Source of the DNA: Raillietiella orientalis
Taxonomy: Eukaryota
Direction of reading: 5' to 3'
Assembly: GCA_036172245.1 (NCBI GenBank)
Contig: JAYWIR010000001.1
Span: forward strand, 9,672,001-9,736,000
Length of the DNA stretch: 64,000 nucleotides
Shown: positions 14,119-64,000 of the stretch, piece by piece
Layout: every line of letters starts with the position of its first letter
How positions within the stretch are numbered: position 1 is the stretch's first letter
The notes under the pieces: model-generated
Seen by the model: the letters and a program-made list of their open reading frames with translations, nothing else
What the model was told of the DNA's origin: nothing
Database searches by the model: none
Program-made: the position numbers and the translations under genes

Positions 14119-26669
<12,551 letters not shown>

Positions 26670-31496: not shown

Positions 31497-32998
31497 TTAG
31501 TCTAATGACATATCGTCTTCTTCCTTTGAACGATCTTTTTTTGGAACTGGTTGGGACTGAAGGGAACGAATGAATGCCTCCATGTCACCTTGCTGGGCAG
31601 CCTGCACAGCAGCTTCACTCAATCCAAACTGCTGCATTAAAGGGCCCAACTGACCAGATTCCAAGGCAGCACTAAATGTTGACACAGCCTACACAGCACT
31701 TGGATGTAATTATTACCCCTGTCTCACCTGCTGGAAAGATGGGGACTGAATAGTTCCTTTCAGCTGCTCAGCAGGTGGCAGATTAGCAAGTTCACTACAG
31801 TTGGGTAAATACTGACGGAGTTGCTCCACAAATTCCTTATTGGAAAGAATGGGCTGAAGAGCCTCTGCTGTCATAGCTGAAGACAAATCCACTGAAAGAC
31901 AAATCAATAGTGGCAAATATACACAAAAAAAAACAAACCTGATGCAGGTTCTGCACTCTGCGGATTGCTATTTTCCATCCCAGATAAAATGGACTGTAAA
32001 TCAGAAAGCTGAATTGCTGGCTGTACATTAGTAGGTGCTTGTCTGGTGGTGACAGATGAAGTAGTAGGAGCAGATGACCGAGAACTCTCCAGGCTGGATG
32101 AATGCTGATTGCTAACAATAACAAAAACACACGTTCAAAAAGTGTTATTATAGCATACTTTCCCAGAAGACCAGACATGTTATTGACCCCTGTGATCAGC
32201 TGCATAAGCTGCTGCTGATTCATATTAGAAAGTAGATTCTGCAGTTCACTATCACCTAAATTAACAAGATCTGCTGGAATACCAGACTGACCACTACGTG
32301 AACCAGTAGCAGGAGGATTGTTTAATAAATCATTAATCTTCTGGCAATAATCATCATCTTTATCACAGGAGGGTTCCTGGAAAACATGAATACAAAAGCA
32401 CAATAGGACAAAATCAAACCTGCATCCAGTAAAAACATTTACGATTTGTAGACTTAAATTTGAGCACATATACACGACTTGTTGTATTCTGGGTGATGCG
32501 TTTATATTCAATATCATCTGGAAAAATGATAAGATCCTGAAAAGCAGTAACACTTGTGATAAAATCAAGAATTCTCAATTCTCTTATATCATTCTCATAT
32601 GTAATTAAAATTTTCAAGCTTAAATTAGAAAGTAATGAAATAGAATGCTCTGATATCAAAATATTGAACACTTATATACAATATTTACATTAATTAAAAG
32701 TTTAAAGAGCCATTAGATAATGTAATATTCAAATTAATGCCTTGTAACTTAAAGTAAAGAAATGGATAACATGAAAACTAACATCTTCCACAGTTCCAGT
32801 GGTTCTGTCTTTCCAACAGAGATGCATCAAGGCATCATCAGACTGGTAAATATATAATAACCCTTTTCTTTTATCTGGGTAAACCATATTTCCTCTTAAT
32901 GTTAATTTGCCTGCTCTAAATTCAACCAGATTACGATTCTGCGTTCTCGAACTGCTATTTCCAAATAAAGGTGTGGTAGTTAATGTTGATGAAGTCAT
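31497..32998 (-). CDS. ADRM1: Proteasomal ubiquitin receptor ADRM1/Rpn13 (Pru domain plus UCH37-binding domain), 6 coding exons
   Basis: Exons 32783-32998, 32420-32536, 32159-32376, 31939-32111, 31728-31891, 31497-31688, with GT-AG introns. Peptides [101 protein letters not shown]-terminal EDDMSLD*. Confidence 0.96.
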
Positions 32999-33921
32999 TA
33001 TCCTGAAGTCTACAAAAAAATAATGCAAGCATCTTGGTTTTAGAACACTAGTCAAATCTACAGCTAAGCATTGACCTAGTTTTCGATAATTCATATAATT
33101 TTTAATTTTAGAGAAGTAAAGACATCCTTCTTTGGCCTTGCTGGGATATCCTGAATCTTTTAACAATATTTTTAATACATCAGCATGGCTGCAATAAATA
33201 ACTGTGCATTTAGAAAACATTTGGTTTAACAAAGTATATTTAAACAATAACTAACTAGGAGAAAATAGAGGTAAACCTATTCCACTGTAAAATCAGTGTA
33301 AAATCGTACTCTTGAGGTACAATTCATTTTCGGATTGTTGTCAAGTTATTAACTCTTAAATCAGTGGGGCCAAAAATTCTTTTTCAATCTAAATTCAACC
33401 TGTTAACAATTAATGTTGACCATTTTTGCACTAAATATCTTATGTTGAATGCAAAAGCAAAAAATTATTTGAACTTGAATATTAACTCTCAGCATTTTTC
33501 CACTAATTGCAGCTAATTTAATACTACAGCTTTCATCATCTCCAAACAGAGCGAAGAAAAATTTAAATACCTCCACAGCACAACACAAAATCATCCACAA
33601 TCCAATATTTTCTCTTAACAAAAATTTGGTAGAGATTTATAGTTGGTGATGATGGATGATATTGTTTAACAAGACACCTGAATCAATAACTCCATCATTC
33701 GAGGTTTTTCAAACAATCCTCCAAACAGGTGTGATCCACGCTCTAAAAGTAATGGGCAAATGAATTTTTTGTAATATTTCATGAATTAGAAAACTGCCAT
33801 CTAAACTTCGAGCAAAAAAGGTGCTTCAGTTGGACAATGTATTCAGAAAGACTGCATTTTCTAACCAAGCTAGCGAAATGCTTTTCACCTTTTACTTGTC
33901 GAGTCTCTGGCAACCAAGTTC

Positions 33922-46383: not shown

Positions 46384-49105
46384 TCAATCACAAGAACCGT
46401 CTTTCCAACCATCTTTCCAACGTTCAAACACTAAGTCACAATCAAAGATAGCTTTGCCAAGCTTTCCGTTCACTTTATTGTGGGCATCGCACAGCCATCG
46501 TGATAGTTTTTCTGCAGAGAACGTGTTGGGAGGATATTCTTTTAGACTAACCATCCGGAAAACCTAGAAGTTTACGTCCAATACCAATCAACTTACTGCA
46601 ACTGAAAGTCTTCGGCGCAGTAATCACAGGGATAAAATTTCGCAAACAGGTGAAGAAAATCTTTCATGTCATTCTGTTGCTGGACCGTTGGACTTGAAGG
46701 ATAATATGCTGCTAGGGTATGAAGTACTGACCAGGAGGAGTTGCCCAGCTGCTGCCGATCGAGAGGGCATTCCTTGTGACTTTGCTACGGTACATTAGTA
46801 GAGAAAAAGATGCATTTGCAATGCAAACACAAAGTTTCAGCACTCATAAAGACAGTACATTCGAGAACAACCAAACTCAAGGAAGCACTTTATAGGTTGT
46901 TTACAGTAGTCCGAAAGAATTCTGAGCACCCACGGTTTCCCATGGGGGAGCGCCTTTTGAATGAGTTACCCACGTGATGCCAAAAGTCGAAAAGCTTCTC
47001 ACTCGACGTTTACCGACAGAGAAAGTGGTAAATGAATACTTTTTCGAGGCAAATACAGAGATTCCGTACAATGAGAACATAATCTAACACAAGATTCACA
47101 AGCAGACATGTACGAAATTGCGCATCCCGCCCCAAAATCAATAGAGGGAAGCAAGAGTTTTGTATTCCAAACACACTTCCTCCATGCTTAGCTCTTCAAT
47201 ACACTCTTTTTTTTTTTTAAACAAGAGAGAGAGAGGGGGGGGGGAATTCACTCCTGATCGATGTGGTCTTCGGTCACTCTTATGCAAAAAAAAAACAAGG
47301 AGCACTGCTGTTGGGATGCAGGCTCCAAAGGTTCAAAACACAAATCCGTAGAACAGAAAGAATCCAAAAGAAGAGGGCGCTATCCAATAACGTACAAGCA
47401 TTTATCATAGGAAAAACTACTGTGTATGAATTTTTAATGACCATCATCTGAAAGGAGCCGTTTCACTGTATGCCACACATCGCAAGGCTACCAACACCGT
47501 GAATTCAATCACCTTAATGCACCTGCCGCTGAAAACCTTCAAACAGGATCAGTTTTCCAACATTTCAATCATGAAAACTCTGAAAGACTCTCATGAAATC
47601 TGATGAAAAGTTTTGCTTCCGAAATTCATTTGTGAATCGACTATAACTGTGCAACCAGTAGGATGGTGGCAGCGAATCGAAGAGCCACCGGCCGCATGAA
47701 GGACGAAGGTTGAAAAGTATCTCTTGCAAGGTGGAAGACGACAACCTCAGCGTCAAACCGAAGTGGATGGGCAAGATCATCCACCACGGATACAGCCCTT
47801 GACCTCGTGACAAAACGTGTGCAGACGATTCGAATAAAATCAACACACACTTTTCTGACGCACAGCGAATCTGATTGGGAACCTTTATTTCGAGTTCCTG
47901 TGCACACGATCGGAAATTCAAACTGGCAGCGAACTCTGAGGCCACAAAAAGGAAACCAACTTTGTGATGGGTCGATTGAACAATTTATTGACGACTGTTT
48001 CGGTTTCAGGGTGGCCCAACAGAAACTTCACGCTCATGCAAACAGAATCACAAAGAAAAGCTCTCGGCTGCAACCGCAGTGGGTTACAAAAATTGCAATC
48101 AAAATCCAAAACTCCGAAATAGCCTCGAATTCAAAGATCAGCTTTTATTAAATTATTGTACGCTGAAAGCTACGGTAAAGAACCAGTGGTCTCTCACAAA
48201 AATCTTACTGACAAACAAAAATCAAGAAACTAATTGAAAGCAAAACAAAACAAATTACATTACATGAACATTGAGGGCTGAACTTGAATGATAAAGATCA
48301 CAGAAAAACAGTCATTTGATAAGAGAACTTAAAAGCTACCACATGAAAAACCAAGCAGCGAGCAAAAATCTATTGCAGACACTTAACCACGGTTAAAAAT
48401 GCCATGATCATTACAAAAACACTACACTACAGTATGATGCAATAGCTCCCCTTAACTTTCACCATCAATGAAAACCATTGGTTGCTACTGTATACAAGAA
48501 AAATAACATACGAAGGAATGGAATGAACAATAATCCTTAATGCAACATTTAGTTCAAGAAATCAACATACAGATTACTTGCTACACATTTATAGGTTTAA
48601 CAGTGGAATCAAGTTTTCAGGAACATACCTGATTGCTTACAACATATTCCTAATATGATGCAAAAACATTGAACATGATATGACGTGCTTAATTACAGCA
48701 AACATGTTATTACTGTTCTTTCTTAAATAAGCCATGAGGTCTAAAATAAAGTCTGTTAATTATGGGTGACCTCACTGTGCCGCTGGCATATGAGAATAGC
48801 AAATATCAACTTTATATATCACCATGAAACCATTACTCATCAATAATTGATATCTCCGTATGCTAAATACAATATAATGGTGATATGCACTTTCTCAACA
48901 ACAAATTATACAAAGTACAGTGAGTGCTATTAGTTACTATCTCAACACTGACCGTATCGTGGCTAAGATCACCATTTCGACTGCTTTCATCTGTAGGTGG
49001 ATCCTTGTTTATTTTTTCTGCTTGAATTTTGAACCATGATTTAAAATCGTTACACGCTCGACAACTTTCCTCAGAATTTTTTACATTTTTACCGGGAGTC
49101 GCCAT
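46384..49105 (-). CDS. GFER: FAD-linked sulfhydryl oxidase ALR/Erv1, 3 coding exons
   Basis: Exons 48953-49105 (shuttle motif [11 protein letters not shown]), 46597-46784 ([25 protein letters not shown]...[11 protein letters not shown], redox CxxC) and 46384-46546 ([15 protein letters not shown]...[13 protein letters not shown]). GT-AG introns of 2168 and 50 nt. Exons 2-3 are not in the ORF track. Confidence 0.96.
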
Positions 49106-52300: not shown

Positions 52301-54807
52301 TTATTTCCAACTGTTAATACATGCTAATATTTCATCATCACGAGAAGGACGTGAGTAATACGGTTCTTTTGCTACCGGATTACAAACCTAGAAATACATG
52401 ATAATACTCTGATGCTCTTACATGCATGAGCATACTTTTCTGTTGATTGCATCTGTTTGCCATTTCCACTGAGTATTGTACAAAAATGGCCGGTGATCAC
52501 TTCGACTGTCATCTGATCCCCATGGGTTAGCATAACATGCAGGAGTCAAAGTGGTCATCTTGTGTCGATTAATAGCATAACGGCGATAAAAGTGCATAAC
52601 TTTTTCTGCAATTTCCTCTGGCGAATGTTTGGCTGCCCACTCATTTAAAAGTAATAGAAAAGTGCTGTATGGACCATAATGCAACTTGGAACGTAGCTTG
52701 GCATACAATTGCAATTCACAATAGCTAATCCCCATGTCTTCTTCATCTGTTTGTTCTGACTGTCCTGCGACTGTAGGCTGTAATTCTGCTGATGGAACTG
52801 CACTCTCTATAGCAGCCACTGATAGTATGCCATGTTCAACTCTCATGTGCTGTAAAAACATGAAGATATGAGCCTTGGTCAGGCCACCAATGGGATTGAT
52901 GTCAGCACTGGAGCAATCATACTTGGTCATATAACCAGAAAGGGCTTCATCTGCATTGGCAGATCCTAATACCAAGAGATTTCTCGGATGTCCTTTCGCC
53001 CATAGCATTAACTGGGCAAATAAATATGACAGAACCATACGTAGTCGAGCTTGAATATTCTGTAATGCAAGGTTTTCTTGCAATGTTCCTCCATATACTT
53101 GAAAACGGGGAATTAATGCAGTGACACCTTGGAACACATTCAGAGCTGCTGCCACAAGAGTATCAATGCACACATTAAAGTGGTAAGAGCCCACATCACA
53201 AGCCAAATGCAAGGCATGTTCTTGAGACTTTGCAGATGAATGACAACTGCCCATATAACATGTGAATAAGATTTTCTTGCACAGCTCCTTGGCTTCTGTG
53301 GGAACAAACTTTGGATCCTGTAAAAGATCACGCAATTCTTCAAGAAGCACCATATTTCCTGACTGGATAGCTTTCACTAACCGTCTACACATGGAAAATA
53401 CCAAGCAAGCTACAGTGGCAGAATCAGCTCCCCCACTTAAGGGAAGGAAAAAGCCTCCCTGTTTGCTGCGTCTGGAACTACTATAAGCAATGATGATCCT
53501 ACAGTGCACATACCTGAGATAGTCCCAGAGCCAGCTACTTAATGCTAATTCAATTTCCTGAGCTGAACTAAGTTTAGGGATGGGAATATATGTTGATGAC
53601 TGAGTATGATTGCTGTCAGGCAAATCAATTTGTATAGTGTGATGAGGCATCCTCTTTTCTTGCTGGACAGAGTGATGCCTTTGTGACTGACAACAATACT
53701 CACTAATTGTTTCCAGGTTTACTTCTGCTACAACAACCTCCTAAGAAGAATCTCCGATTGTTATGTGATTTCTGTTACTCACTACATCTTGAAGATTATA
53801 CGGTGGAAGGTGGGCCACAATGTCTCCATTTATCATTACAAATGCACCACCTTTAAAAAAAACTCGCTGCCCATCACAGCCTTTCAAGTTAGAATGTATA
53901 TAGCAGCCTCCTCCTGAAGTACTATTCACATAACAGATTTGATCAACTTGCAAAGTCTGATTCAGTTCAAATGGAGAGGCTGAGCTGTTTACAATGATAT
54001 CTACATCCTCTGAATATTTATTGCTACATTTTATGAAATTCAATCCTTATCCTTGAAAACACTTCACTTACTGATGAGAAACCCAGATTTCTGTACTCAT
54101 TACAAATTCCATGCAAAATCCTGGATCTCCTAAGTTTTCCAAAATTACATCTCCAAATGGAACTGAATTTTGACCTGTGTAAACACGCACATTCTCTGGC
54201 AGCAAATAAGAAGCACCACCAGCTGGCTAATACGAAAACATGAAACATGACACTAACATTCTATAGAACCTGTGTCCAAGCAGTAAACCATCTATTCTCT
54301 TGAAAGCACCCATCACATCTTAAGACCTTCTTTGGACGAATCAGCAATATGGTACTTAAGAGTACATTAAAGCTTTGTAGAAATCTTTTTACCGATTATG
54401 GAAGATCACTCGGCATATGTAAGCTTGATTTTGATATAGAATTGGCATGCCAACATCAATCAACAAATTCCTACAAGTGTGTGTATCCATTAGGGCCAAA
54501 ACAACTTCCCAAGAATGAAGATATGTGTCTTTTTCGAAAAAATGATCTTCACAACTGTAGCCGCTGGAAATATTGATTTAAAAAGGTATTTATGGCAATC
54601 ACATCAAATCAAATCGCAAGAATTGCCATGAAAACCGGGGAAAAATGAAATTTCAAAATACCAAATCTCTAATTCTGGTCCTGTTCGAAACTGAGCACCT
54701 TTCTGTTTTGCTTCTTCAATGCTCCTTAAAATCCTATGAAAATTCCCATGAAAATCAAGGGCCCATTGATTTAGGCTGCAGGCAGCAACATAAAAAAGCT
54801 TCCTCAT
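52301..54807 (-). CDS. NADSYN1: NAD(+) synthetase, NADSYN1/Qns1 family (nitrilase-like glutaminase domain, divergent, plus intact synthetase domain), 8 coding exons
   Basis: Exons 54662-54807, 54393-54563, 54270-54354, 54072-54226, 53783-54023, 53514-53740, 52436-53471, 52301-52387. Peptides [124 protein letters not shown]. The last short exon is less certain (unspliced read-through stops at 52418). Confidence 0.95.
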
Positions 54808-57800
54808 TGTAATGTAGACTTTTGGTCTATAAGCTCGTGCCCCAGTCTTTGATCCGCTACATTGATCAAGCAAAGTAAATACATCTGCAAGCTGTGTACG
54901 GAAGACGAACGCCTGTCCTACCCAAATGTCCTACCCCAATTATGAAAGCATAATTTCAGATTATGATTTCATACTTCCTTTATATACAATTATAATCCTA
55001 CTTGAACATTAATGAAACCATGTTCATGTAATGTATCTAAGTTTCGAGTAAAGATATCCCTAGACAACAAGACTTAAAATCAAATGTTATAATTTCGGTG
55101 GTACAGATACTACAATTTAATGCTACCTACTCTCCAGAGCAAGTTAATAAAGCAATTCTTATAACAAATTTGATCCAACCATCTCTGTCTAATTCAAAAC
55201 TCTCAAATCGGGAGCCAAAATTAATGCAATACTAAGTACTACATCAGTTTTGACACAAAATACTCATGCTCTTTTAGCCATTTTTCCACAACGATTTGTT
55301 TAGTCATAAAAATGATTTCAATTTAAAATACATATAATTTTAGTTTAAATAATTTTTGAAGTTTTGAAACGGAAAGACCAAGTCGAGTCATTTATAGAAA
55401 CCTAAAGGACTCATACTGCCGACTCATAATGCCAAGCTTTGGTTTTCTTCAATTTGGGCACCCCAATTCCATGTGTAGTACTTAGAATTATGGACAAAAC
55501 ATGAACATAAGAGGCAATGATAAGGAATATCTATTCACATATATAAATAGGTTTTTTTTTTTTTTTGGAGAGCATCCTTTAATAGCTTCCCATTCGGAAA
55601 TATTTTCTGAGCTTCGTTTCTACGAATTATACGTCATTCACTAATTGCAAGCAGGGTTGCCAACACAAGTTAGTGGAATCCCGCTCGATGGCATTCAAAA
55701 CCCTGCGATTTTCCAACAATTAATCTCCAGATTTTGATACTTAGTAATTCATTATTATTGTTATTAAATCATTTAATGTCATTTAATCTTCATATTCAAT
55801 AGTATAAAAATAAAATGCAAACTAACAAATCATCGTTGATCACGTGAAATCTATGTTATTAAGCTACTGCTGCAATTGTTCGATACGTTTGTAAGGAGAG
55901 CGCCGCACCGCCGCTCTTATTACCTACAGCTAAAAGAAAAGGTTAGAACAGTCTGTAAACTTATTGCCGCTACACTGCAGGAACCACAATTTAAATATCA
56001 AAATATTTTAATGGCAAGGAAGTCGTTTTCCTCGAAAATCTTTATCAGCAATGCAATAATCATTAATGTGACTTCATATCTGCCAGGATTAAAACATGGA
56101 TGGATAAAATATCCGGAATTTTATTTAAGAGTATTTAAAACATCCACAATTGAAAATTTTCTGTGTAACCATGAAAAACCCGTAAATTTCGGGGATCACG
56201 ATTTAAAAACAGCTAGAATTCCCGCGTAGTGGGATAAAATGCTTTTTGCCGTGAGATGGGTATTCCAAAAACCTCTAAATCGGCAATCACTTTGCAATTT
56301 TCGGTGATTGCTTTACAACAGATGAGTACAAAACTAAAGCATTCGGTCTGAAGTTTTGACTACTATTAATAATCTACTAATTACACTAACTACATGCACG
56401 ATTTGCGATTAATTTCAGTCTTGCATTTGTTTAATTCTCCATAAATATAGAGAAATCCATCTATTCAATGACGCAGTTCACTCTTTTAAAGTACAGTAGA
56501 ACAAAAGTGTTAAACAAAAATCTTTACCCTAATTTCCAGCAAGCTACAAAAGAAAAGATTTGCATCAAAGCTTATCTAATATATGTATCCAGTTATGTAA
56601 TTATAGAAACTTTTTTCTACCTTGATTCAGGGTCTGTAATAACAAAATCTTGATTAAATGGGGAAATGAAATGAATCTAAATTTGAATTTATTTTACAAT
56701 TTCTGTCAAATAATTATTCAGCATACTCATGAGTCCGTCCGTATGTTCGACTGAATACTTCCAAAAGACCGTTGATATTCTTCTTTATAGCTTGTTAATC
56801 TTTATAGCCTCAAAATTATTTATAGCTTGTTAATATTATTCCTCTTAACTTCTAATTCTGAAAACATGTTTGCTAATGGAAACAGTATCACCCTTTCTAC
56901 CATCAACACTGCAATTCGAAATTTTTTCTATAGTTACACATTACTATTCTTCCTTTCACTGAAAAACAAAACAAGTCAAAGAATCGTTTGCTATTGCTGG
57001 AATCTATTTCGTAATGCATTCTAATGTTTTTAATTATCCAGTTTCTCGTAGTATTTACAGAATCATGCCAATGCATTATCATCGTATTATTATTATATTA
57101 TCTACTTAATATTATTATATCAACGGTATTCACTTGAAGAATGTGACTGTAGATATCATATCAAATCATTTTTATTTGTTTATACCCCTAACTAAAGTGT
57201 GATCAAAAAGAATGTAAAAAGTGAACTACCTCCTTGTGTTCTTGTAATCACTATATTTAGATTGTTGATCTCCAATCATATTTCATGTCTTCATTCTCTT
57301 AGTCCTCAATATAGTTTAAGAGTTTACTAATTCGCTCATGTAAAATATTTATGGTTTGTTGAGCAACCCAGTTTTGGCAGCGTGTCGCATTTTCCGGTCA
57401 ATATGAGAAAAAGTCTCATTCAGTGGTGCTTCTAAGTGTCCATAGAAGTTCTCCGGCAGCTGCCTTATTCACCAGAGCTCATATTAGAATGACTGACATT
57501 TCTTTGATGGACAGTTAGTTTCCTCAGAAGAGCGTATGTTTTCGTTTAGCAACAGATCATGAGTTTTGGAAAATCGTTTGTAACTGATGCTTTACCATTA
57601 CTGCAGATGATCGTGCAGTTTCGCAATGAGTTTTCCTTGTTATCGGATACTTATCTGTAACTCTGTGATTGCGGTCATTTGTGTGTACAGAGAATTCTTT
57701 GTAGAAATAATTCAGTCTATAATTCTGTTCTCACTGGCAAGTGCACAATGGTAATTAATTTGCGAATATTTGCTTATTTCGTTTCGTAGTACTAAAGTAG

Positions 57801-62058: not shown

Positions 62059-62592
62059 TCACACATAGGTCACCCAATTACTTCCATCTTCTGGACCAAG
62101 GTAACCACATATGAGTAACACTATGTCTGTAATCCACCATATTCCTAATCCACCAAGAGTTAACAATTTGCCCACAGCCATGCCTGTATATCCAAGACAA
62201 AATCTGTCCATGCCCAAGAATCCCATTAAGAGACTATACAACAAGGTTGTTGTAAACAGATGACCTGTATATCGTATGCATGGTATACCATCCTTGAAAA
62301 ATGTGCGGGGCCCGAAGCACTCAATATTTGGCAAAACTGTACATTTTACCGATGTATGTTCAACTTCATGATACTTTTGACCTCCAAATTTCACACAACC
62401 ATAATTAAGTTGTTCACGTAAAGTTTCATTTCCATGAAGATCTTCGGGTTCATCACAATCAAGAAATTCCAAAGGTAGGAAGGAGCAGTTCACTAAGGCG
62501 GAATGGGGCTCGTAAACTGCTCCACAACTTTCATTGAAGCAAGGCTGTTTTGCCAGTACTGTGCAGACAAAACTTAACAATAGAATATACAT
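62059..62592 (-). CDS. TM2D2: TM2 domain-containing protein 2 (intronless CDS, signal peptide plus Cys-rich ectodomain plus TM2 domain)
   Basis: 177-aa ORF: hydrophobic N-terminus, [90 protein letters not shown] and KFGGQ fit the TM2D2 subfamily. Confidence 0.94.
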
Positions 62593-64000
62593 ATAAAGGG
62601 AATTCCTTTCCTATGATACAAAGATATTTCACGAAACAAGCAGGCCTATCAACACATCCAATTTAACGAGGTTGCCTGAACGGTTTCCGTTTCTCCTAAG
62701 TGCTCACGTTAGATGCACGTCCTCGGAGATAACGTGTTTTCATTACTTCTAAACATCCCTTTTGCTGAAAAACATTATGCATTTCTTACTCTTACCTGCT
62801 GCGATGCTTGTAAACTGCTGCATTGCACCTAGCAGGGGTACGTTTCAGAAAATCACCACTGAACAGCCACATCTCGGGTGCAGCAACTTCTTCCCGTGCA
62901 CGTCAACAGCCCCGCGCACTTCTGCCAAACTTTTTCTCTTAAGACTATCCACTCCACCCCAATGGGCTGCAGTGCCGTTTTGCCTTCAGCAGCAAGGTAA
63001 ACCACGAAAACTTGAAAAATAAAAACCCTGTTTTCAAATGATTTTCTCTGAGCGTGTTTTTCTGGGGGGGGGGGAGGAGGAAATCGTTTTGAAAAGATAA
63101 TGGGAGTGCTTAGGCTTTACCAAGCCCGAGCTCTGATGGTTTGGCACATTCTTAGAATCACTGGGATCTTAGCAATTTATCTACTGCTCCAGTTTTTTGT
63201 TTTTTTCCTTCTTTTGCACATACATTGAAAATGCACAGTTGTGCTAGTGCCACAGAAGACATGAATTCGGTATGCTTAAGTTTTCGGGGCAATGACATGT
63301 TTCAAGCTAGAAAAGCAAGAAAAGTTTGATGTGTATTTATAAATGTAAACCGTCCAAGAGGGATTTCAAAGTAATCCCTAGTGCAAATAAATCCAGCAAT
63401 ACATTTTCCGTGTAACTATCTAATTCACTTTTACGCAGCGTTTGTTTATTCAGTTGGTTTAGCTTGCTGGCTTTATGAACAGCATCATTCAAAAACATTT
63501 CTTGATGTGCATGATACTCTAACGGTGATTAGCTATAACAGCTGCAATAGTTCATCCCTATTGCAAACCTTCCAATGTTCTCTTCAGAGTAAGTTAACCT
63601 GAAATCAATTAATCCGCACAGAGTACACTATGATTCATCGGAATGACAGAGGAAACAGGATTCATGTAAATTGTCCACGAAATATAAGGTCGGAAATGTG
63701 GAAAAGATGCCTTTATTCCTTAAATGCCTTTTTAATCCCATGATTTACAAGTTCAATAAGTTGCAGCACAAAATGATCAAAACCTTATATTGTCATCCAA
63801 ATACGCACCACTTGGAATCCGAACTGAGTAATAGTAGAAAAAAATACATTCCGAGAAACAAATCGCTTGATGCAATGTTTCTTGCTGCATTTATTGATTG
63901 TCATTATTTCCTTTGTTTTTAAAACTCACATCTTCAAAAGTGGCATAGATGTAGTAAAGCATTCTTTATCACTGATTTTAAAACAAGTCAAATTGGAAAT

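What the first reader, a model, noticed from the sequence alone, without database searches (positions are those of the whole stretch)
54072..54226. NAD synthetase with no in-frame catalytic Cys in its glutaminase domain: candidate ammonia-dependent animal enzyme
Seen: this exon translates [30 protein letters not shown] where the family has VPFGD...GxEICEELW. Depending on gap placement, the nucleophile slot is Ser (AGT, 54095-54097) or Val. The other triad residues are present (GPELEI Glu, IRPK Lys). Neighbouring motifs are also altered (GCFQENRW for GNYREx[11 protein letters not shown] for SGSHHxLRK), while all synthetase-domain motifs look intact. Known: eukaryotic NADSYN1/Qns1 uses a nitrilase-type E-K-C triad to release ammonia from glutamine. 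Inference: this enzyme may have lost glutaminase activity and use free ammonia, or may be a divergent paralog. Caveat: one extra A at GAA-TTT-GT would give E-I-C-N-E, so an indel error or an ancient compensated frameshift must be excluded; the current frame does join canonical splice sites and keeps the conserved Trp.
Basis: partly seen in the sequence, partly recalled or inferred. Interest (0 to 1): 0.75.

Follow-up and report, generated by a model that had tools for sequence, protein, structure and literature searches.

The report
Animal NAD synthetase lacking its glutaminase cysteine
An intact, transcribed NAD-making enzyme gene of an unidentified arthropod-like animal has serine where all compared relatives have the cysteine that splits glutamine, so it probably makes NAD from free ammonia.

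Summary
The minus strand carries a seven-exon, 692-codon NADSYN1/Qns1-type gene (54807-52418) with six GT-AG introns of 38-98 nt. Codon 178 (AGT, 54097-54095) is Ser at the column where 92 of 92 full-length homologues have the nucleophile Cys. The alignment to the human structure chain agrees.

This is a set of point substitutions, not a frameshift. The stretch from the upstream Cys to the Trp aligns without gaps in the annotated frame, and a family profile matches only that frame. The upstream Cys is the ordinary non-catalytic one (88 of 92).

Three more invariant glutaminase residues are changed (E176T, Y123F, R124Q), while all eight invariant synthetase-site residues named for the human enzyme are kept. 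The whole protein sits on a very long branch; the neighbouring TM2D2 gene does not. RNA contigs 95-96% identical show intron 1 spliced and pN/pS of about 0.28.

Most likely it is a glutaminase-dead, ammonia-only NAD synthetase. No reads cover exon 4, and copy number is unknown. This scan earlier noted similar cysteine losses in bacterial NadE on other DNA.

The parts
54662..54807 (-). Exon 1 (ATG at 54807-54805), start of the nitrilase-type glutaminase domain. Catalytic Glu45 codon GAA is at 54675-54673.
   Evidence: tblastn of three homologues. Gene model. Pfam CN_hydrolase 31.5 bits on this exon alone. An RNA contig of run X1 joins this exon to exon 2.
54393..54563 (-). Exon 2 ([10 protein letters not shown]...VIFHNR).
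   Evidence: The spliced joint 54662/54562 in the X1 RNA contig supports intron 1.
54270..54354 (-). Exon 3. Catalytic Lys114 is at 54332-54330. The 'YRE loop' reads C122-F123-Q124-E125 (54308-54297), where homologues have N-Y-R-E.
   Evidence: Tyr and Arg are 92 of 92 in homologues. Glu125 is kept.
54072..54226 (-). Exon 4, the finding. It holds the remodelled nucleophile elbow: a 3-residue insertion (PGF), the non-catalytic Cys172 (54115-54113), Ser178 (AGT, 54097-54095) at the nucleophile column, Thr179 (54094-54092) for the adjacent Glu, conserved Trp182, then a 3-residue deletion.
53783..54023 (-). Exon 5, the rest of the glutaminase domain (…[15 protein letters not shown]…GCDGQRVFF…).
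53514..53740 (-). Exon 6, the linker and start of the synthetase domain. The intron before it lies where several arthropod-type genomic ORFs also begin.
52418..53471 (-). Exon 7, the synthetase domain, with P-loop SGGADS (from 53437) and stop TAA at 52420-52418.
   Evidence: Pfam NAD_synthase 91.2 bits. 6ofb_A match at E 1.2e-114. All 8 invariant synthetase-site residues kept. Two X1 RNA contigs cover 52488-52993.

Best explanation
This is a real, intact and transcribed two-domain NAD+ synthetase gene of the eukaryotic NADSYN1/Qns1 type, in an arthropod-like animal. Its nitrilase-type glutaminase active site has been disabled by ordinary substitutions.

The changes are: nucleophile Cys to Ser178, the adjacent gating and activating Glu to Thr179, and Tyr-Arg of the YRE loop to Phe-Gln. 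There is also a 3-residue insertion before the nucleophile elbow and a 3-residue deletion after it.

The ATP-pyrophosphatase (synthetase) site is unchanged. The protein therefore most likely still adenylates NaAD and amidates it, but only with free ammonia. The N-terminal domain would be kept as the structural core and tunnel partner.

Shown here: the gene structure, the residue replacements, the conservation contrast between the two active sites, splicing of intron 1 in RNA, and the intact frame. Inferred: the loss of glutaminase activity and the use of ammonia.
For: 1. Gene model: 7 exons, 6 GT-AG introns, 692 codons with no internal stop.
2. Nucleophile column: Ser178 where Cys is 92 of 92. 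phmmer against 6ofb_A and a family profile (frame 1 at 15.8 bits; the other frames score below 0 and match elsewhere) give the same placement.
3. Glutaminase-site and tunnel residues named for the human enzyme in PMC6946656 (sections 9, 12 and a passage of 13 read). Of the ten that are near-invariant among the homologues (87 or more of 92), four that are 92 of 92 are changed (C175S, E176T, Y123F, R124Q) and Asn122 (87 of 92) is Cys. Five are kept (E45, Y51, K114, E125, S202), and so is the gating Trp179 (91 of 92).
4. Named synthetase-site residues: 8 of 8 invariant ones are kept (D361, Y525, A573, L575, D587, D590, Y595, H648). V360 is Ala, as in 2 of 92 homologues.
5. The human enzyme uses ammonia as well as glutamine (kcat/Km 0.49 against 0.45 per s per mM; PMC6946656 section 7). 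A cysteine-less enzyme therefore still has a working route.
6. Selection and expression: RNA contigs 95-96% identical join exon 1 to exon 2. Of 17 listed differences, 8 are synonymous and 9 non-synonymous, giving pN/pS of about 0.28 over 535 covered coding bases.
7. 68 of 94 highly conserved N-domain columns are retained despite a terminal branch of 1.14 substitutions per site, so the domain is kept as a folded unit.
Against: - No read or transcript covers exon 4. The Ser rests on one assembly.
- No close relative was found to show that the Ser is conserved.
- The synthetase domain is also strongly accelerated: 36 of 182 conserved columns are changed, 14 of them 92 of 92 columns. Its activity is not assured.
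- The human enzyme's Km for ammonia is 42 mM, so an ammonia-only enzyme of that kind would be slow at usual cellular ammonia levels.
- From recall: the title of Bieganowski et al. 2003 (seen only in a reference list) calls the yeast glutaminase domain 'essential, obligate'. That argues against an ammonia-only enzyme being sufficient as the sole copy.
- pN/pS rests on 17 differences, mostly outside the glutaminase domain.
Confidence: 0.55

Rival explanations
1. The gene is a redundant or dispensable copy under relaxed selection. Either a canonical NADSYN1 lies elsewhere in the genome, or NAD is made by routes that bypass NAD synthetase. In that case this fast-evolving copy contributes little or has drifted to another role. 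The dead glutaminase site would be a symptom, not an adaptation.
For: - Both domains sit on a terminal branch about twice the longest of 92 homologues (1.14 and 1.19 against maxima of 0.51 and 0.59).
- The neighbouring TM2D2 is ordinary (mean identity 0.60 against 0.58-0.63 for 11 other animals), so the acceleration is gene-specific.
- 36 of 182 conserved C-domain columns are changed.
- PMC6946656 (introduction passage) states that humans can make NAD independently of NAD synthetase.
Against: - The 692-codon frame is intact, with six correct introns.
- All named synthetase catalytic residues are kept.
- pN/pS is about 0.28, and the transcript is spliced.
- No second copy or alternative exon lies in the window (six-frame motif scan). 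The rest of the genome could not be searched.
Confidence: 0.27
2. Ser178 still works as a nucleophile with Glu45 and Lys114. The enzyme would then remain a slower glutamine amidotransferase, or hydrolyse another amide.
For: - Glu45, Lys114, Glu125, Tyr51, Ser202 and the gating Trp are retained.
- The domain is kept folded.
- An earlier, unchecked note of this scan (e1-890133) reports a bacterial NadE glutaminase subunit with Ser at this position, kept by selection.
Against: - The adjacent Glu176, described as raising the thiol's nucleophilicity, and the ligand-contacting YRE loop are also altered (Glu176 to Thr; Tyr123 and Arg124 of that loop changed). The elbow carries an insertion and a deletion.
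- From recall, Cys-to-Ser mutants of nitrilase-superfamily enzymes are inactive or nearly so.
Confidence: 0.12
3. The missing Cys is an assembly artefact, either a base error or two compensating indels that hide a real E-I-C motif.
For: - One inserted base would give E-I-C-N-E in another frame (read from the sequence).
- No reads cover the site.
Against: - The annotated frame aligns without gaps from Cys172 to Trp182, with 4 identities.
- The profile gives no match in the other frames at this place.
- The shifted reading puts its Cys two residues too early, so it needs two protein gaps as well as two DNA indels.
- A single base error cannot explain the six changed invariant columns within 11 residues.
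- There is no frame break anywhere else in 2,079 coding bases.
Confidence: 0.03

Closest known systems
Human glutamine-dependent NAD+ synthetase NADSYN1 (hsNadE, PDB 6OFB; Chuenchor et al. 2020, PMC6946656)
   Same: Same two-domain architecture. The last 440 codons match chain 6ofb_A at E 1.2e-114. Glu45, Lys114, Glu125, Tyr51 and Trp179 are kept, and so are all named invariant synthetase-site residues.
   Different: Cys175 is Ser, Glu176 is Thr, Tyr123 is Phe and Arg124 is Gln. The elbow has a 3-residue insertion and a 3-residue deletion. Identity to animal homologues is only 42-51%, where those homologues share 57-74% with each other.
Arthropod NADSYN1 orthologues (e.g. the Daphnia galeata protein P0008)
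   Same: The model groups with P0008 and P0016 inside the arthropod clade (SH-like support 0.84). It shares invertebrate-type residues (Glu54, Asp120, Phe242). The position of intron 5 and a single last exon of about 440 codons match several arthropod-type genomic ORFs.
   Different: The terminal branch is about 1.2 substitutions per site, and the nucleophile is lost. All 92 compared homologues keep Cys.
Vertebrate carbamoyl-phosphate synthetase I (recalled from established knowledge, not tested here)
   Same: An amidotransferase whose glutaminase domain is retained but has Ser for the catalytic Cys, and which runs on free ammonia. This is the nearest precedent for how the protein would work.
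   Different: It has a different glutaminase fold (class I triad, not nitrilase-type) and belongs to a different pathway. There is no homology with the domain at issue.
Bacterial NadE forms without the catalytic Cys, noted earlier in this scan (e1-890133 Cys to Ser in a split form; e1-771495 Cys to Gly in a fused form). These are AI notes and were not checked here.
   Same: The same enzyme family and the same kind of natural loss of the nitrilase-type nucleophile.
   Different: Those are bacteria. The present case is a eukaryotic, animal-type fused enzyme. De Ingeniis et al. 2012 (PMC3376133, abstract and passages read) describe the fused, glutamine-using two-domain form as characteristic of all eukaryotes.

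Membership tests
Eukaryotic two-domain (type F) NAD+ synthetase, NADSYN1/Qns1 | N-terminal CN-hydrolase domain fused to a C-terminal NAD synthase domain, homologous over the full length | tested here: met
   tblastn of three homologues covers residues 1-690. Pfam NAD_synthase 91.2 bits and CN_hydrolase 31.5 bits on exon 1. 6ofb_A match at E 1.2e-114.
Eukaryotic two-domain (type F) NAD+ synthetase, NADSYN1/Qns1 | ATP-pyrophosphatase P-loop SGGxDS and the NaAD/ATP-site residues | tested here: met
   SGGADS at 53437. 8 of 8 invariant named residues kept.
Eukaryotic two-domain (type F) NAD+ synthetase, NADSYN1/Qns1 | Nitrilase-type Cys-Glu-Lys catalytic triad | tested here: not met
   Glu45 and Lys114 are present. 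The nucleophile column is Ser178, where Cys is 92 of 92.
Eukaryotic two-domain (type F) NAD+ synthetase, NADSYN1/Qns1 | YRE loop (Tyr-Arg-Glu) and the Glu adjacent to the Cys | tested here: not met
   The loop reads Phe-Gln-Glu, and Thr179 replaces the adjacent Glu. Tyr, Arg and that Glu are each 92 of 92 in homologues.
Eukaryotic two-domain (type F) NAD+ synthetase, NADSYN1/Qns1 | Glutamine-dependent NAD+ synthesis | not testable with these tools
   Needs an enzyme assay.
Eukaryotic two-domain (type F) NAD+ synthetase, NADSYN1/Qns1 | Orthology: the single-copy gene of the organism | tested here: inconclusive
   It nests in the arthropod clade beside Daphnia-type sequences (SH-like 0.84) and shares intron 5 and the last exon. 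No genome is held to count copies.
Single-domain NH3-dependent NAD+ synthetase (bacterial/archaeal NadE) | Synthetase domain alone, with no fused glutaminase domain | tested here: not met
   A complete N-terminal nitrilase-type domain is present. It may work like this family but is not a member.
Nitrilase superfamily (CN_hydrolase, PF00795) | Fold-level homology with an invariant nucleophile Cys | tested here: not met
   Homology is met. The Cys is not.

The most novel reading that the evidence does not exclude
This is the animal's only NAD synthetase, kept by selection as a naturally cysteine-less enzyme. It would be either an obligate ammonia-using eukaryotic NADSYN1, or a nitrilase-fold glutaminase that works with a serine nucleophile. 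Neither is described for eukaryotes in the two papers read or in the four literature searches run.
Probability: 0.3. Interest if true: 0.7.

Novelty: new variant of a known kind. Interest (0 to 1): 0.45.

Why it matters
Eukaryotic NAD synthetases are described as fused, glutamine-using enzymes (PMC3376133). From recall, the yeast glutaminase domain is reported as essential. A naturally cysteine-less animal enzyme that is still expressed and under constraint would raise several points:

- It would be a natural experiment on whether free ammonia can feed NAD synthesis in an animal.
- It would be a case of a glutaminase domain kept only as scaffold and tunnel, parallel to carbamoyl-phosphate synthetase I.
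- It warns that automatic 'glutamine-dependent' annotation can be wrong.
- The gene-specific acceleration of both domains hints that the pathway's importance changed in this lineage.

The value is limited for now, because the organism, its gene copy number and read support at the site are all unknown.

Tried and rejected
- **Own genome:** none is held, so no search for a second copy was possible beyond the window.
- **Six-frame motif scan of the window:** patterns for a canonical elbow, YRE loop, LLIRPK and SGGxDS found only this gene's own LLIRPK and SGGADS.
- **Sequencing runs:** one run only (X1, a metatranscriptome, share of words 0.07). When laid, its three contigs cover 52488-52993 and 54509-54823 but not exon 4. 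Read support at the Ser could not be tested.
- **Close relatives, none found:**
  - The word-indexed search with the 440-codon ORF gave a best identity of 55% among the 120 listed hits.
  - The exhaustive representative search with exon 4 (51 aa) gave one unrelated hit at E 8.7e-4.
  - The search with exon 5 (80 aa, near lengths) found no candidate.
  - The JGI metagenome scan gave 9 loci with at most 56% identity in the best segment, none close. One of them (L002) is a full-length protist form with a canonical Cys.
- **Rfam on the whole window:** no match, so it gave no clue to the organism.
- **Frameshift reading (E-I-C-N-E):** rejected on spacing and profile grounds.
- **Upstream Cys172 as nucleophile:** rejected. 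It aligns with the ordinary non-catalytic Cys (88 of 92), six residues earlier on the same strand.
- **Cys122 in the YRE loop as a replacement nucleophile:** considered, but there is no support. One of 92 homologues also has Cys there.
- **Retrocopy:** rejected, because six introns are present and intron 5 is shared with arthropod-type genes.
- **Structure prediction:** not run.
- **Literature:** four searches found no paper on a natural eukaryotic NADSYN1 without the Cys. Bieganowski et al. 2003 was seen only as a reference-list title.

Full report
**What is in the sequence**

The finding lies on the minus strand. tblastn with three animal NAD synthetases (lamprey, Daphnia, Hydractinia proteins) covers their residues 1 to about 690 between 54807 and 52427.

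From the sequence I built a model of seven exons:

| Exon | Window coordinates |
|---|---|
| 1 | 54807-54662 |
| 2 | 54563-54393 |
| 3 | 54354-54270 |
| 4 | 54226-54072 |
| 5 | 54023-53783 |
| 6 | 53740-53514 |
| 7 | 53471-52418 |

The six introns are 98, 38, 43, 48, 42 and 42 nt, all GT..AG. The product is an uninterrupted 692-codon frame. Pfam finds NAD_synthase (91.2 bits) in the last ORF and CN_hydrolase (31.5 bits) in exon 1 alone. The last 440 codons match the human enzyme chain 6ofb_A at E 1.2e-114.

**The nucleophile position**

I aligned the model with 92 full-length homologues. These are all hits of 680-770 residues among the 120 listed; the 28 shorter hits were left out of this count. 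Codon 178 (AGT, 54097-54095) falls in the column that is Cys in 92 of 92. The following Thr179 falls where Glu is 92 of 92. Val176 falls where Glu is 92 of 92.

From the upstream Cys172 to Trp182 the alignment has no gap (model [11 protein letters not shown]). Cys172 sits in a column that is Cys in 88 of 92, the ordinary non-catalytic Cys of that strand. phmmer against 6ofb_A gives the same pairing (weak on its own for this 51-residue exon, E 0.97). A profile built from the 92 homologues gives it too (frame 1 scores 15.8 bits over profile positions 140-182).

The model has three extra residues (P-G-F) before Cys172. It lacks three residues (a P-x-S that is 87 of 92) after Trp182.

**Frameshift or error?**

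Three points argue against it:

- The profile finds nothing in the other two frames at this place; their best matches are elsewhere and score below zero.
- In a doubly shifted reading the Cys would lie two residues too early relative to Cys172 and Trp182. That reading needs two DNA indels and two protein gaps, against none for the annotated frame.
- A single base error cannot explain six changed invariant columns within 11 residues.

There is no frame break elsewhere in 2,079 coding bases. I therefore put an artefact at about 3%. This is an inference, because no read covers the site.

**The two active sites compared**

I used the residues named for the human enzyme in PMC6946656 (abstract, sections 7, 10 and 12 read whole; section 9 and others as passages only). 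I mapped them through a 707-residue vertebrate homologue whose residues agree with the paper at all but three human-specific positions.

| Site | Kept | Changed |
|---|---|---|
| Glutaminase | Glu45, Tyr51, Lys114, Glu125, Trp179, Ser202 | Cys175 to Ser, Glu176 to Thr, Tyr123 to Phe, Arg124 to Gln (each 92 of 92 in homologues); Asn122 to Cys (87 of 92) |
| Synthetase | Asp361, Tyr525, Ala573, Leu575, Asp587, Asp590, Tyr595, His648 (each 92 of 92) | Val360 to Ala, as in 2 of 92 |

The paper describes Glu176 as moving toward the triad to raise the thiol's nucleophilicity. It describes the YRE loop as contacting the ligand and coupling the two sites.

Of SASPFELNQ only the final Lys to Gln hits an invariant column.

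**Rate of evolution**

The protein is unusual as a whole.

- At columns at least 95% conserved among the 92 homologues, it differs at 26 of 94 in the N-domain and 36 of 182 in the C-domain. The homologues themselves differ at a median of 0 and 1 (maxima 23 and 10).
- Its terminal branch is 1.14 (N) and 1.19 (C) substitutions per site, against maxima of 0.51 and 0.59.
- Identity to six reference animals is 0.42-0.49 (N) and 0.48-0.51 (C). Those animals share 0.58-0.74 and 0.56-0.68 with each other.
- The neighbouring single-exon TM2D2 gene (62610-62062) is ordinary: mean identity 0.60 to 11 animals that share 0.58-0.63, and terminal branch 0.56 within their range of 0.39-0.65.

The acceleration is therefore specific to this gene and affects both domains, somewhat more the normally better-conserved N-domain.

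**Expression and constraint**

Only one public run held part of the gene (X1, a metatranscriptome). Three of its contigs, 95-96% identical, lie on 52488-52782, 52790-52993 and 54509-54562 joined to 54662-54823. The last contig skips intron 1 at my splice sites. The single letter between the two sides corresponds to a synonymous change of the Cys49 codon (my reading of tables 5 and 5c). It is therefore spliced mRNA of a close relative or variant.

Of 17 listed differences, 8 are synonymous and 9 non-synonymous, the latter in 7 codons. With 108 synonymous and 427 non-synonymous sites in the 535 coding bases away from contig ends, pN/pS is about 0.28. This sample is small and mostly C-terminal. 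Table 8 counts 29 differing letters in all, and 12 of them are not itemised. Exon 4 is not covered.

**Organism and orthology**

- No genome is held.
- In a FastTree of model plus 92 homologues, rooted on the cnidarian, the model joins the Daphnia galeata protein and a metagenome protein (SH-like 0.84) inside an 81-tip clade that includes the named insect and crustacean homologues. The next node has no support, and long-branch placement is unreliable.
- Several genomic ORFs among the hits begin at the same point as exon 6 and run about 440 residues to the end. One is named for a leafhopper; the others carry no name. Intron 5 and the large last exon therefore appear to be shared.
- This speaks for an arthropod-type orthologue, or a duplicate of one, and against a retrocopy.
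- No relative closer than 56% identity was found in any database.

**Interpretation**

The most likely reading (0.55) is a glutaminase-dead enzyme that retains ammonia-dependent synthesis, with the N-domain kept as a structural partner. The human enzyme shows that the fused form uses ammonia well in vitro (kcat/Km 0.49 against 0.45 per s per mM). Its Km for ammonia is 42 mM, which counts against sufficiency in vivo. So does the 'essential, obligate' yeast domain (title only; details recalled).

The rivals are:

- a dispensable or duplicate copy under relaxed selection (0.27), which overlaps with the main reading on the dead site;
- a working serine nucleophile (0.12);
- an artefact (0.03).

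**Comparison with what is known**

This is a member of the two-domain NAD synthetase family by architecture and homology. It fails the family's defining triad and YRE-loop features. It would work like single-domain ammonia-dependent NadE, and like carbamoyl-phosphate synthetase I (recalled), without being a member of either.

Earlier notes of this scan report natural loss of the same Cys in bacterial NadE (e1-890133, e1-771495; not checked by me). I found no paper on such a case in eukaryotes (searches; an absence in those searches only).

**Verdict**

This is a new variant of a known kind, of moderate interest, limited by the missing read support, unknown copy number and unknown organism.

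Noticed in passing
window 1-23300 versus 23300-64000: Base composition drops sharply at about 23.3 kb, from about 52-67% G+C to about 33-45%. Both parts carry eukaryotic genes, so this looks like a compositional domain boundary. A mis-join of the assembly was not excluded.
   Followed up: partly
window 15097-20773, minus strand: Seven overlapping stop-to-stop ORFs in the G+C-rich part hit Pfam Ion_trans (best E 2e-19 and 1.3e-18). This suggests a multi-repeat voltage-gated cation channel gene with very short introns.
   Followed up: partly
window 62062-62610, minus strand: A TM2 domain protein 2 (amaretto-type) gene appears to be encoded in a single exon. It is 56-75% identical to animal TM2D2 proteins, and molluscs, nemerteans and arthropods are the best named hits. 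It was used here as a rate control.
   Followed up: yes
window 46596-46784, minus strand (with a possible first exon near 49100): An Erv1/Alr (GFER-type sulfhydryl oxidase) exon (Pfam 61.8 bits). The possible upstream exon, read by eye from the ORF list, would imply an intron of about 2 kb, much longer than those of the NAD synthetase gene.
   Followed up: partly
window 32732-33250, minus strand: This ORF hits the Pru domain of proteasome subunit Rpn13/ADRM1 (E 2.7e-13).
   Followed up: no
window 53741-53782 and 53472-53513, minus strand: Introns 5 and 6 are both exactly 42 nt. They keep the reading frame; intron 6 has no in-frame stop, so a 440-codon stop-to-stop ORF runs through it, and intron 5 ends on one. 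Intron 4 (48 nt) is also a multiple of three. Retention of intron 6 would insert 14 residues without breaking the frame.
   Followed up: no
L003 and L004 (metagenome loci): These are two near-identical marine eukaryote NAD synthetase contigs, 41-43% identical to the query. Their longest ORFs begin only after the nucleophile region, so their Cys status was not seen.
   Followed up: no
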